Shown piece by piece: positions 43,796 through 46,700 of a DNA stretch of 64,000 nt. Each line of letters opens with the position of its first letter. Positions within the stretch are counted from its first letter, which is position 1. Made by a program: the position numbers. This DNA comes from Escherichia coli (GTDB taxonomy: Bacteria > Pseudomonadota > Gammaproteobacteria > Enterobacterales > Enterobacteriaceae), in assembly GCF_030013205.1 (NCBI RefSeq), contig NZ_CP122648.1. The stretch is one strand, 5' to 3'.

Positions 43796-46700
43796 GGTTA
43801 TGCGCTGATGCCTGATGCGGCGCGGGCGCGTCTTATCATACCCTGGAAGTCTGCGCCCGAATCGTAGGCCGCCTCCGCTATATTAACTGGCATTGGCAAA
43901 TTACTCGTCACTACCTTTATTCATGTTTTTTTGGTCTTCATCCGGATAATGTTTTTTTAGATATTCCAGGACGTTTTTATTGACCTTGTGTTGCGTATAC
44001 ACCCACCCTTTCCAGTAATCAGGCTGGTCCAGGTAAACTTCTGGCGGAATGGTGAAATCAGAAAGCGTTAACCATTCGGCTAATAGATCGGGGTTTCGTT
44101 TCTGGATTAACTGCAACAGCATAATCAGTGACATAGCTGAGGCAGGAGCCGTACTATCGCCACTTAAATATTTCCACACTGTTGACCGGTTCGAACGAAA
44201 AAGGATCGGTAGCAATGCCCGGTCCAGATTCATTTCATTAAAAATCTTCTCAAATTCATTCATTTAAATTTTCCTGCCTGGCGTAAACCTCTTAAAAATT
44301 GAGATTTATCAAAGAAACGCATTTTAGCACACATAAGGAACCGCTTCACGTTTAGTCCAGAAACAGAATTTATTTCGCTTATCAAAACAAGTCTTTACTC
44401 TTTTTTACATTGAAAGAGCACAAAATGATTTTCGATTTTATTTATATAAGAAACAATTTTTGTTTCTTATTGGTGGTGTTTACGCTTACACCAGACAAAA
44501 ATGCGCTTTACATCACACAAATGGCGGCGTAGATTTCGATTAAATTGCAACGCAGTTTATTTCTTAAAACAATATTATTTGTTTCTTATAGAAACATTAA
44601 TGCGACTTATTTTGAACAAGAGAAAATGAATGAAAACTGTAAACGTAGCTTTACTGGCACTCATAATTTCAGCAACATCCAGCCCTGTTGTTTTAGCTGG
44701 TGATACCATTGAAGCGGCGGCAACAGAGCTTTCAGCCATTAACTCTGGCATGTCGCAATCGGAGATTGAGCAGAAGATTACCCGCTTTTTAGAACGCACA
44801 GACAACAGCCCCGCTGCGTATACCTATTTGACTGAACATCACTACATCCCTTCTGAAACACCTGATACCACTCAGACTCCCACTGTCCAGACAGATCCTG
44901 ACGCAGGACAAAAAACCGTTGCCGCTACAGGTGATGTACAGACAACCGCCCGTTATCAGAGCATGATCAACGCCCGACAGTCTGCGGTAACTGATGCCCA
45001 GCAAACGCAAATTACAGAGCAACAGGCGCAGATCGTAGCCACACAAAAAACGCTCGCCGCGACTGGAGATACGCAAAATACTGCGCATTATCAGGAGATG
45101 ATTAATGCCAGACTGGCGGCTCAAAATGAGGCTAATCAGCGCACTACCACGGAACAAGGGCAGAAAATGAATGCACTGACAACCGATGTGGCAGCACAAC
45201 AGCAAAAAGAAAGGGCTCAATACGATAAACAAATGCAAAGTCTGGCGCAGAAGTCTGTCCAGGCACATGAGCAAATTGAAAGTCTGAGACAAGATTCCGC
45301 ACAAACGCAGCAACAGTTAACCAACACGCAAAAACGGGTCGCAGATAACAGCCAACAAATTAACACGCTCAATAACCATTTCGATTCTCTGAAAAACGAA
45401 GTTGAGGACAATCGTAAAGAAGCCAATGCGGGAACTGCATCAGCCATCGCTATCGCCTCACAACCACAGGTGAAAACCGGTGACTTGATGATGGTGTCAG
45501 CGGGAGCGGGAACCTTCAACGGTGAATCTGCGGTGTCTGTAGGAACATCTTTTAATGCCGGAACGCATACGGTACTTAAAGCAGGTATTTCTGCGGATAC
45601 ACAATCTGATTTCGGTGCGGGTGTCGGCGTGGGATATTCGTTCTAATTTTAACAGCAATTTCTTATTCGCAATTTTCCGTACATTATTTAAGGTTAACAA
45701 TGATGAATAGCTCCATTAAATCGTTTTCCCTGCTGGCGGTTATATTACTGGCTGGCTGTAGTTCACCCACTTCCCGCATCGCAGATTGCCAGGCGCAGGG
45801 CGTCAGCCATGACACCTGTTATCTCGCAGAACAACAGCGTCAGACGGCTATTTTAAGTGCATCCGAGGCGCAGGCATTTAAAAATGCAGAAGCCGCACAA
45901 CATGCCCAGGCGGCAAAGAAAGCCATTTATAAAGGATTTGGAATGACCTTTAGAATGAGCAGTAAAAACTTTGCTTATCTCAATGATTCATTATGTGCAA
46001 TTGATGAAGACAATAAAGATGCCACTGTTTATCAGTCAGGTCTGTATAACGTCATTGTTTATCATCACACAGGAAAAGTCGCCTTAATGAAGGAAGGTCA
46101 ATTTGTGGGTTATTTAAAATGAAGGAGCAAAGGAAAATACCCCTGACGCATATTATGATTATCGGTGCGTTTATTTTTGCCTTCTTGCAAGTAGTATTAT
46201 TAGCCTCCCTGGTTCACGCTGTGAATGTTAACAACGAAATCCAGGAAGGCTTATTTCAGTCGGGGCGCATTATGGTAGAAAGTTTGCAGCATATTCTTTC
46301 GGTGCAAACGGGGATTAACTGATTTTCACCCCGCCCGATGATGACAGCAGCCGGAGAGATTTTCGATAATCGGGCAGTCGGCGCTGTCATCGCCAGGGCA
46401 GGCATTCGCCAGCGCCAACAGCTGGTTGCGCATGGATTGCAGTTCTTCGATATGTCGCTCGATCTCCGCCACTTTCTCCAGGGTGCGACGTTTGACGTCG
46501 GCACTGTGACGCTGCGGATCGTTAAACAGATTCACCAGTTCGCCGCTCTCTTCCAGGTTAAAGCCCACCTGGCGCGCCTGGCGCAGTAAGGTCAGTTCGT
46601 TGAGATGCTGCTGCGTGTAGGTTCGATAACCATTTTCGCTGCGCATCGGCGGCGTCACCAGCCCCTTCTCTTCATAGAAGCGAATGGCTTTGCTGGTCAG

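What the first reader, a model, noticed from the sequence alone, without database searches (positions are those of the whole stretch)
44447..44596. Two perfect palindromes sharing the half-site AGAAACA between the divergent island genes
AAGAAACAA-N4-TTGTTTCTT (44447-44468) and TGTTTCT-TAT-AGAAACA (44580-44596) sit about 110 bp apart in the 366-bp intergenic region between the 120-aa gene and the mini-adhesin gene. Shared half-sites with different spacing and arm order look like operator sites for a dimeric regulator, possibly the divergent 120-aa protein, or like a recombinase target. I do not recognise them as a known E. coli regulator motif.
Basis: seen in the sequence. Interest (0 to 1): 0.5.

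Follow-up and report, generated by a model that had tools for sequence, protein, structure and literature searches.

The report
Operator array for an adhesin-linked regulator
The two palindromes belong to a conserved set of AGAAAC sites around two back-to-back promoters, and they are most likely the landing sites of the neighbouring small, uncharacterised DNA-binding protein that controls a mini-adhesin operon in pathogenic E. coli.

Summary
Both palindromes exist, with small corrections: the first is ATAAGAAACAA-TTT-TTGTTTCTTAT at 44446-44470, with a 3-nt spacer, not N4. AGAAACA occurs 6 times in 64 kb, 5 of them in this 366-bp spacer.

The locus is O-island 29 of E. coli O157:H7. It holds z0640 (the 120-aa gene), z0639 (published as "gmrA") and z0638.

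Relatives from at least 12 lineages keep the same layout: a small gene divergent from a YadA-type adhesin gene, a 280-380 bp spacer and repeated half-sites at fixed positions. The repeated unit is a 15-bp dyad, RTTTCT-N3-AGAAAC. Palindrome 2 is one perfect unit. Palindrome 1 is the strong halves of two adjacent units.

The parts
43901..44263 (-). Gene for the 120-aa protein (z0640 of O157:H7 O-island 29). It has an XRE/lambda-repressor-like HTH at about residues 1-67, with the predicted recognition helix in NRSTVWKYLSG, followed by a family-specific helical C-terminal part.
44321..44329 (-). Predicted extended -10 element of the 120-aa gene's promoter (TGCTAAAAT on the - strand). The predicted start of transcription is near 44314.
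   Evidence: TG(G/C)TAAAAT-like element lies 36-60 nt upstream of the small gene's start codon in 10 of 14 lineages, including distant ones (L015, L016, L018, L029). The promoter function is inferred, not mapped.
44304..44318 (+). Operator-like unit OP1, ATTTAT-CAA-AGAAAC. Its strong half, AGAAAC, is at 44313-44318 and overlaps the predicted -10/+1 of the 120-aa gene's promoter.
   Evidence: Conserved block in the alignment of 11 spacers. Fixed position about -194 from the adhesin -35 in all AGAAAC-type lineages. 6-N3-6 match.
44350..44364 (+). Operator-like unit OP2, GTTTAG-TCC-AGAAAC. It sits exactly 46 bp from OP1 in most AGAAAC-type lineages and abuts the predicted -35 region of the 120-aa gene's promoter.
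   Evidence: GA-AAC is invariant across the 11 sequences, and the leading A is nearly so. Positions -148 to -159 with constant 46-bp spacing. 6-N3-6 match.
44440..44454 (+). Operator-like unit OP3, ATTTAT-ATA-AGAAAC. Its strong half is the left arm of palindrome 1.
   Evidence: AAGAAAC is invariant in 11 Escherichia alleles.
44446..44470 (.). These are the facing strong halves of OP3 and OP4. Its centre is about -84 from the predicted adhesin transcription start.
   Evidence: The core AAGAAAC-N7-(G/A)TTTCT is conserved with a variable spacer sequence of constant length. A positionally equivalent palindrome, AAGAACATT-A-AATGTTCTT, occurs in the distant lineage L018.
44462..44476 (+). Operator-like unit OP4, GTTTCT-TAT-TGGTGG. 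The right half is degenerate in E. coli. The unit is intact elsewhere: GTTTCC-AAT-AGAAAC in L013, GTTTCT-ATA-AGAAAT in L010 and GTTTCC-ATT-GGAAAT in L007.
44507..44535 (+). Predicted sigma-70 promoter of the adhesin operon: TTTACA, 17 bp, TAGATT. The predicted start of transcription is near 44542.
   Evidence: Promoter scan. The block GCTTTACATCACA-N8-GGCGTAGATT is the best conserved part of the spacer in all lineages. It has not been mapped experimentally.
44559..44573 (+). Operator-like unit OP5, ATTTCT-TAA-AACAAT. The right half is degenerate in E. coli and intact as ATTTCT-TAT-AGAAAC in L010. Its centre is about +24.
   Evidence: It is part of the 34-nt direct repeat 44437-44470 / 44556-44589, 119 bp apart.
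44580..44596 (.). Palindrome 2, which is operator unit OP6: TGTTTCT-TAT-AGAAACA, with perfect 6-N3-6 core GTTTCT-TAT-AGAAAC at 44581-44595. It lies in the predicted 5' untranslated region, with its centre at about +46, 34 nt before the ATG.
   Evidence: The right arm AGAAAC is invariant in Escherichia and conserved, with single-base variants (GGAAAC in L010, AGAATC in L014), in the other lineages at +82/83 from the -35. The left arm is conserved within Escherichia (GTTTCT or GTTGCT) but not outside it.
44630..45646 (+). Gene under control: a 338-aa mini trimeric autotransporter. It has a Sec signal peptide, a coiled-coil stalk and a YadA anchor. This is z0639, published as 'gmrA'.
   Evidence: YadA_anchor PF03895 E=1.6e-11 at residues 279-338. 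RefSeq name 'YadA family autotransporter adhesin'. The identity with gmrA follows from the deletion and cloning primers.
45700..46322 (+). Downstream genes of the same module: a 140-aa lipoprotein (45700-46122, z0638) and a 67-aa membrane protein (46119-46322).
   Evidence: ORFs and annotation. Both are conserved next to the adhesin in other genera. A lipoprotein homologue is retained opposite the regulator gene in L029.

Best explanation

Two units (OP1, OP2) bracket the protein's own predicted extended -10 promoter, which suggests autoregulation. Two pairs of units, each 22 bp centre to centre, lie at about -95/-73 and +24/+46 around the predicted adhesin promoter, 119 bp apart. This suggests cooperative binding and possibly a DNA loop that represses or gates the adhesin-lipoprotein operon.

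Shown: the sequence features, their conservation, the fold prediction, the conserved gene layout and the covariation.

For: (1) Clustering. AGAAAC is the most over-represented hexamer in an unbiased count over 7 diverged spacers, with 31 observed against 2.0 expected. Its density is 12.4/kb in the spacers and 0.41/kb in the flanks.

(2) Phylogenetic footprint. Half-sites sit at fixed positions relative to the conserved promoter block in 10 lineages. In Escherichia the arms are invariant in 23/25 columns, the spacers in 2/10 and other positions in 104/193, P=1e-4, with constant spacer length.

(3) Geometry. Upstream of 44 AGAAAC sites, the hexamer 3 nt away matches GTTTCT best (2.91/6, against 1.5-2.4 at all other offsets). 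A 15-bp dyad with half-site centres 9 bp apart suits an HTH dimer.

(5) Obligate pairing. In all but two of the loci where it could be read, the small gene is divergent from a YadA-anchor or adhesin-like gene across a 230-380 bp spacer; the exceptions are L017 and L037, and in L029 the partner is the module's lipoprotein. This holds down to 21-32% protein identity.

(6) Covariation.
- The clade with recognition helix PRNTIFNYLNG has RGAACA sites (16.2/kb against 1.0) and no AGAAAC. It includes a perfect palindrome at the position of palindrome 1.
- The clade with QRSTLNKWVNG has AGCTAC sites (up to 14.3/kb against 0.29) arranged as GTAGCT-N3-AGCTAC, the same 6-N3-6 geometry.

(7) Sign of regulation.
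- OP1 overlaps the predicted -10/+1 of the regulator's own promoter, and OP5/OP6 lie downstream of the predicted adhesin start.
Against: No binding, footprint, reporter or transcription-start data exist for this region. The promoters are predictions, and the 120-aa gene's promoter failed the two-hexamer scan.

The E. coli protein itself does not reach any Pfam HTH threshold (best E=0.12).

The first AF2 model, built from 10 sequences, was poor (pLDDT 54).

Several units are half-degenerate in E. coli (OP1-OP5 have 2 or more mismatches in one half). In some lineages (L015, L004-L006) only single half-sites are recognisable, so dimer binding to dyads is not the only possible mode.

The covariation rests on three clades, and the hexamers were picked after looking at the data.

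The 119-130 bp spacing between the upstream and downstream pairs is not an integral number of helical turns (about 11.3-12.4).

I did not scan a whole genome, so other targets or many unrelated copies elsewhere in the chromosome are not excluded beyond this 64-kb window.
Confidence: 0.65

Rival explanations
1. The repeats are sites for a chromosomally encoded host factor, either a global regulator or a nucleoid protein. Candidates are H-NS on AT-rich foreign DNA or an envelope-stress response regulator. In this reading the 120-aa protein has another role.
For: The spacer has 31% G+C and lies in a horizontally acquired island, which is typical H-NS territory (established knowledge). A separate conserved CpxR-like box, GTAAA-N5-GTAAA, lies at 44394-44408. 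This shows that host regulators probably also act here. All three island genes drop together on contact with host cells, which a host signal could explain.
Against: The repeated hexamer differs between clades living in related Enterobacterales (AGAAAC, RGAACA, AGCTAC), and it changes with the small protein's recognition helix. A conserved host factor would keep one motif. The sharp pattern of invariant arms and variable spacers is not what H-NS nucleation produces. No known E. coli regulator consensus that I can recall matches RTTTCT-N3-AGAAAC, and a literature search found none.
Confidence: 0.15
2. Palindrome 2 works at the RNA level, as a hairpin in the 5' untranslated region of the adhesin mRNA.
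Against: The leader folds no better than shuffled sequences (z=-0.49; 56 of 200 shuffles fold as well). The left arm is not conserved outside Escherichia while the right half-site is. In four Escherichia alleles the left arm is GTTGCT with no compensating change in the right arm. This fits DNA half-site constraint rather than base pairing. The same hexamers also occur upstream of the promoter, where no RNA is made.
Confidence: 0.05
3. The inverted 11-mers (44446-44456 and 44579-44589) are the ends of an invertible promoter segment or another site-specific recombinase target. This would give phase variation of the adhesin.
For: Perfect 11-bp inverted repeats flank a 122-bp segment that contains the predicted adhesin promoter. 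Adhesins are often phase-variable through such switches (established knowledge, e.g. fimS).
Against: The inverted arrangement is found in 0 of 1413 complete E. coli genomes that carry the region, and the native arrangement in all 1413. No recombinase or integrase gene lies in or next to the island. The flanking 11-mers are not conserved outside Escherichia, while promoter orientation is the same in all lineages. The island ends lie elsewhere, between ybbJ and cueR.
Confidence: 0.03
4. The repeats are a by-product of local duplication and AT-rich composition, with no sequence-specific function.
For: A 34-nt imperfect direct repeat (76% identity) 119 bp apart contains half of each palindrome. 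A 7-bp-arm palindrome alone is expected by chance in such DNA (P about 0.41).
Against: The half-sites are conserved in position across genera while the surrounding sequence has diverged. The arms are invariant while the spacers vary. Each individual spacer has 2-6 copies against 0.2-0.4 expected.
Confidence: 0.05

Closest known systems
Controller (C) proteins of restriction-modification systems (e.g. C.Esp1396I, C.AhdI) and their OL/OR operators
   Different: There are no restriction or modification genes here. The controlled gene is divergent, not co-transcribed. A second operator pair lies downstream of the target promoter. The C-terminal helical part has no counterpart. Sequence similarity is not detectable.
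Anti-CRISPR-associated regulators Aca1/Aca2
   Different: The match covers only the HTH part (68 residues, rmsd 7.1). There is no phage or acr context, and the protein family is absent from the phage collection. The target here is a chromosomal adhesin operon.
XRE-type antitoxins (HigA2, MqsA)
   Same: These give the closest sequence-level hints (MqsA_antitoxin HTH E=0.12 for the E. coli protein and 3e-5 for a family member) and structural matches. They bind palindromes overlapping their own promoter.
   Different: There is no toxin gene partner. The conserved partner is a YadA-type adhesin gene.
Repression by operators on both sides of a promoter (gal OE/OI with GalR; lac O1/O3)
   Same: Operators lie upstream and downstream of the controlled promoter, roughly 115-130 bp apart. 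This invites a loop model (established knowledge; here an analogy only).
   Different: The protein family is different. Looping is untested here, and the helical phasing is not obviously integral.
[not shown]
   Same: It is the same island and the same intergenic region. The paper reports condition-dependent expression of z0639, and its complementing clone contains both palindromes.

Membership tests
XRE / Cro-C1 (lambda-repressor-like) HTH superfamily | Five-helix bundle in which helices 2 and 3 form the helix-turn-helix | tested here: met
   [not shown]
XRE / Cro-C1 (lambda-repressor-like) HTH superfamily | Significant match to a Pfam HTH profile (HTH_3, HTH_26, HTH_31, MqsA_antitoxin, Xre-like-HTH) | tested here: inconclusive
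   The E. coli protein reaches only MqsA_antitoxin at E=0.12. One or two of 24 family members reach 3e-5 to 4.5e-4 for MqsA, Xre-like-HTH, HTH_3 and HTH_26. There is no NCBIfam or PHROG family.
XRE / Cro-C1 (lambda-repressor-like) HTH superfamily | Sequence-specific binding to inverted-repeat DNA as a dimer | not testable with these tools
   Binding is inferred from the conserved 6-N3-6 dyads and from covariation. It needs EMSA or footprinting.
Type II toxin-antitoxin module (HigA/MqsA-type antitoxin) | Adjacent, co-transcribed toxin gene | tested here: not met
   In the lineages examined the neighbours are an adhesin gene on one side and unrelated housekeeping genes on the other. The one exception is L013, where a separate Xre/RES pair lies downstream and is not conserved elsewhere.
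Aca (anti-CRISPR-associated) regulators | Encoded in an operon with anti-CRISPR genes on phages or mobile elements | tested here: not met
   No match in 50,697 phage records. The only 'plasmid' matches are two 4.9-Mb E. coli records, presumably mislabelled chromosomes. The context is chromosomal adhesin genes.
Invertible promoter switch (fimS-like) | Inverted repeats flanking a promoter-bearing segment | tested here: met
   Perfect 11-bp inverted repeats at 44446-56 and 44579-89 flank 122 bp that contain the predicted promoter.
Invertible promoter switch (fimS-like) | Both orientations occur in natural populations, and a site-specific recombinase gene is nearby | tested here: not met
   The inverted form is in 0/1413 genomes and the native form in 1413/1413. 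No recombinase gene lies in the island.
Trimeric autotransporter adhesin (for the controlled gene z0639, 'gmrA') | C-terminal YadA-like membrane anchor preceded by a coiled-coil stalk, and an N-terminal signal peptide | tested here: met
   PF03895 covers 60/60 profile positions at residues 279-338, E=1.6e-11. Residues 100-270 give only weak hits (E 0.003-0.4) to coiled-coil families such as ATG16 and CCDC93_CC. The N-terminus MKTVNVALLALIISATSSPVVLA/GD reads as a Sec signal peptide (direct reading). RefSeq names it a YadA family autotransporter adhesin.
CpxR-regulated promoter (for the box at 44394-44408) | Tandem GTAAA-N5-GTAAA | tested here: met
   A perfect match lies on the - strand. There are 2 matches in 64 kb against 0.06 expected. 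The box is conserved with at most 1 mismatch in several lineages. The consensus is from my own knowledge, and binding was not tested.

The most novel reading that the evidence does not exclude
Probability: 0.5. Interest if true: 0.6.

Novelty: new member of a known kind. Interest (0 to 1): 0.45.

Why it matters
About a quarter of complete E. coli genomes carry the island (1413 of 5426). Yang et al. list O157:H7, O55:H7, O145:H28, E2348/69, UTI89, RS218, IAI39 and 042 among the carriers.

The operator array gives a concrete, cheap set of experiments: EMSA, reporter fusions and hexamer swaps. These would settle how the adhesin module is switched. They would also show whether the reported motility effects come from a surface or envelope effect rather than from direct transcription control.

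The clade-specific hexamers in a constant 6-N3-6 frame also offer a small natural series for studying how HTH specificity changes. The kind of system itself, a small HTH autoregulator with inverted-repeat operators, is well known.

Tried and rejected
- Invertible-switch or recombinase target. I built the inverted form of 44457-44578 and searched 5,426 complete E. coli genomes. None carries it.
- RNA structure of the leader. It folds no better than shuffles (z=-0.49).
- Direct family assignment of the 120-aa protein. Pfam, NCBIfam, PHROGs and PDB sequence searches gave nothing significant.
- First structure prediction with 10 close sequences. It was unusable (pLDDT 54). It succeeded only after the alignment was deepened with distant members.
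- SadB-like or other solved relatives of the 140-aa lipoprotein. None were found by sequence.
- Phage or plasmid origin of the regulator family. There is no phage match, and the only 'plasmid' matches are two 4.9-Mb E. coli records.
- The search for related loci with the diverse alignment failed. With the close alignment it returned only 4 species representatives.
- P0033, a 2772-aa repetitive protein that matched the profile. I judged it a compositional artefact and did not pursue it.
- Matching the motif to known E. coli regulators. Comparison from memory (OmpR, PhoP, RcsAB, Cra, NarL, CRP, Fur, LexA) gave no fit. A text search for the hexamers with 'inverted repeat' and 'repressor' found nothing relevant.
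- Whole-genome motif scan. Only the 64-kb window and the flanks of the fetched loci served as background.
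Full report
WHAT IS THERE

The window is E. coli. Between ybbJ (43257-43715, +) and cueR (46326-46733, -) lies a four-gene insertion:
- a 120-aa ORF on the minus strand (43901-44263);
- a 338-aa YadA-anchor protein on the plus strand (44630-45646);
- a 140-aa lipoprotein (45700-46122);
- a 67-aa membrane protein (46119-46322).

The 366-bp spacer between the divergent genes (44264-44629, 31% G+C) holds both palindromes.

The first palindrome is ATAAGAAACAA-TTT-TTGTTTCTTAT at 44446-44470. It has 11-bp perfect arms and a 3-nt spacer.

The second is TGTTTCT-TAT-AGAAACA at 44580-44596, as stated.

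IS IT MORE THAN CHANCE?

AGAAACA occurs six times in 64 kb, which is the chance number, but five of the six lie in this spacer. The 11-mer TTGTTTCTTAT occurs three times exactly, all here.

A 7-bp-arm palindrome alone would not be remarkable in such DNA (P about 0.41). An 11-bp-arm palindrome is (P about 0.008), and six AGAAAC copies against 0.30 expected is far outside the simulations.

GTTTC-N5-GAAAC and GAAAC-N7-GTTTC each occur once in the window, both in the spacer.

IDENTITY OF THE LOCUS

The control region is present once per genome in 1413 of 5426 complete E. coli genomes, including O157:H7. It is O-island 29 of EDL933.

Yang et al. (2018, PMC5826968) named z0639 'GmrA', a transcriptional activator of fliA. 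Their primers identify the genes as follows:
- The gmrA deletion and cloning primers match the sequence just upstream of, and at, the ATG of the 338-aa YadA-anchor gene.
- The z0640 primers match the 120-aa gene.
- z0638 is the lipoprotein.

COMPARATIVE EVIDENCE

Homologues of the 120-aa protein at 61-89% identity were traced to contigs from other Escherichia species, Pseudocitrobacter, Ca. Symbiopectobacterium and metagenomes.

More distant members (21-48% identity) were found with a profile search, which returned only 24 proteins among 1.84 billion representatives. Cluster names and AlphaFold-database matches place these members in Pectobacterium, Serratia, Hafnia, Klebsiella aerogenes, Yersinia, Cronobacter and Ewingella.

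In all but two loci where the neighbourhood could be read, the small gene is divergent from a YadA-anchor or adhesin-like gene. The adhesin is usually followed by the lipoprotein, and the spacer is 230-380 bp. The exceptions are L017 and L037.

The module sits at different chromosomal places in different genera and has no integrase.

AGAAAC is the top over-represented hexamer in an unbiased count over seven diverged spacers, with 31 observed against 2.0 expected. Its density is 12.4/kb in the spacers and 0.41/kb in the flanks.

The sites occupy fixed positions relative to the best conserved block of the spacer, GCTTTACATCACA-N8-GGCGTAGATT. That block is the sigma-70-like promoter found by the scan: TTTACA-17-TAGATT at 44507-44535.

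THE REAL UNIT

I measured how well the hexamer upstream of 44 AGAAAC sites matches GTTTCT at every offset. An offset of 3 nt stands out, at 2.91 of 6 against 1.5-2.4 elsewhere. The unit is therefore a 15-bp dyad, RTTTCT-N3-AGAAAC.

In window coordinates the units are:
- OP1, 44304-18: ATTTAT-caa-AGAAAC
- OP2, 44350-64: GTTTAG-tcc-AGAAAC
- OP3, 44440-54: ATTTAT-ata-AGAAAC
- OP4, 44462-76: GTTTCT-tat-TGGTGG. The right half is lost in E. coli and intact in L007, L010 and L013.
- OP5, 44559-73: ATTTCT-taa-AACAAT. Degenerate here and intact in L010.
- OP6, 44581-95: GTTTCT-tat-AGAAAC. Perfect.

Palindrome 2 is OP6. Palindrome 1 is the pair of strong halves of OP3 and OP4 facing each other.

OP3-OP4 and OP5-OP6 are each 22 bp centre to centre. 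The two pairs are 119 bp apart, which is the imperfect 34-nt direct repeat. They bracket the predicted adhesin promoter at about -95/-73 and +24/+46.

OP1 and OP2 are 46 bp apart in most AGAAAC-type lineages. They bracket a conserved extended -10 element, TG(G/C)TAAAAT, found 36-60 nt upstream of the small gene in 10 of 14 lineages.

CONSTRAINT WITHIN ESCHERICHIA

In 11 alleles down to 79% identity, the arms are invariant in 23 of 25 columns, the spacers in 2 of 10 and other spacer positions in 104 of 193 (P=1e-4). Spacer lengths never change. This is the pattern expected of protein-contacted half-sites.

THE CANDIDATE BINDER

The 120-aa protein has no significant Pfam, NCBIfam, PHROG or PDB sequence match. 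The best is the MqsA HTH at E=0.12.

With a 24-sequence alignment, AlphaFold2 gives pLDDT 90.8.

Full-length structural matches are only to uncharacterised enterobacterial proteins.

COVARIATION

In the clade whose recognition helix reads PRNTIFNYLNG (L018/L019), AGAAAC is absent. RGAACA occurs at 16/kb against 1/kb in the flanks. The perfect palindrome AAGAACATT-A-AATGTTCTT sits at the position of palindrome 1.

In the Serratia-type clade (QRSTLNKWVNG), the over-represented hexamer is AGCTAC. It is arranged as GTAGCT-N3-AGCTAC, the same 6-N3-6 frame.

A host-wide factor would not be expected to change motif in step with the neighbouring gene. This is my main reason for naming the small protein as the binder.

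LIKELY MECHANISM

- Occupation of OP1 and OP2 would shut its own promoter.
- Cooperative occupation of the two operator pairs around the adhesin promoter, possibly joined by a loop, would repress or gate the adhesin-lipoprotein operon.

Repression is favoured over activation for two reasons.
- Sites overlap the predicted -10/+1 of the regulator gene and lie downstream of the predicted adhesin start.
- A published clone carries the control region from 44311 and z0639, but not z0640. It complemented the island deletion, and deleting z0640 had no phenotype in that assay.

All three genes are expressed in DMEM and fall to zero reads on host-cell contact.

RIVALS

- Recombinase target or invertible switch. 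The 11-bp inverted repeats do flank the promoter, but the inverted form occurs in 0 of 1413 genomes and there is no recombinase.
- RNA hairpin. The leader folds no better than shuffles. The left arm varies without compensation.
- Host factor. This is argued against by the covariation. A conserved CpxR-like box at 44394-44408 suggests that host inputs also exist.
- Chance or duplication. This is argued against by positional conservation across genera.

LIMITS

Nothing here demonstrates binding. The promoters are predicted. The covariation rests on three clades, and the hexamers were chosen after inspection.

VERDICT

The operator reading is the best explanation (about 0.65), and the recombinase reading is out.

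In kind this is ordinary: a small HTH autoregulator with inverted-repeat operators. The protein family is unannotated, restricted to Enterobacterales and tied to trimeric-autotransporter genes. The result also puts a question mark over the published assignment of regulator function in O-island 29.

Noticed in passing
[not shown]
   Followed up: partly
window 44394-44408 (- strand): A perfect GTAAA-N5-GTAAA, the CpxR-type tandem repeat, lies between the two promoters. There are 2 matches in 64 kb against 0.06 expected. It is conserved with at most 1 mismatch in several other lineages. It may link the adhesin module to envelope-stress signalling.
   Followed up: partly
window 16221-16235 (+): This is the only other GTAAA-N5-GTAAA match in the window (GTAAATTCAGGTAAA). 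I did not examine its context.
   Followed up: no
window 43901-46322; loci L004-L007, L009-L011, L013: The four-gene module (regulator, adhesin, lipoprotein, small membrane protein) sits at different chromosomal sites in different genera. It lies between ybbJ and cueR in Escherichia, between qmcA and fetA in Pseudocitrobacter, and next to nrdAB-yfaE in Ca. Symbiopectobacterium. No integrase or transposase is attached, so how it moves is unexplained.
   Followed up: partly
L002 2064-3164; L004-L006, L010, L013-L016, L024: The adhesin gene varies greatly in length and sequence (338 to about 627 aa) while the regulator and control region are conserved. In strain FDAARGOS_1291 the annotated adhesin starts 1.1 kb downstream of the regulator gene. 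This suggests a disrupted or unannotated N-terminal part.
   Followed up: no
L029 2725-3150: In one Serratia-type locus the regulator gene is divergent directly from a homologue of the island's 140-aa lipoprotein, with no adhesin gene between them. This hints that the lipoprotein has a role of its own. No solved-structure relative was found by sequence.
   Followed up: partly
window 46326-47905 (-): The start codon of cueR overlaps by 4 bp the stop of an upstream HlyD-family type I secretion gene (46730-47905). That gene follows a 720-aa ABC exporter (47902-50064). In this strain cueR therefore appears to be the last gene of a secretion-gene string.
   Followed up: no
window 43800-43870: G+C-rich sequence that looks like REP elements (e.g. 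GCCTGATGCGGCGCGGGCGCGTCTTATCA) lies at the left edge of the insertion, just after ybbJ. These repeats account for the thousands of short matches in the genome search.
   Followed up: no
L009 and L012: These two assemblies show many split genes around the module, and the T-run in the spacer of palindrome 1 differs in length (N8 and N6 instead of N7). This looks like homopolymer sequencing error rather than real spacing variation.
   Followed up: no
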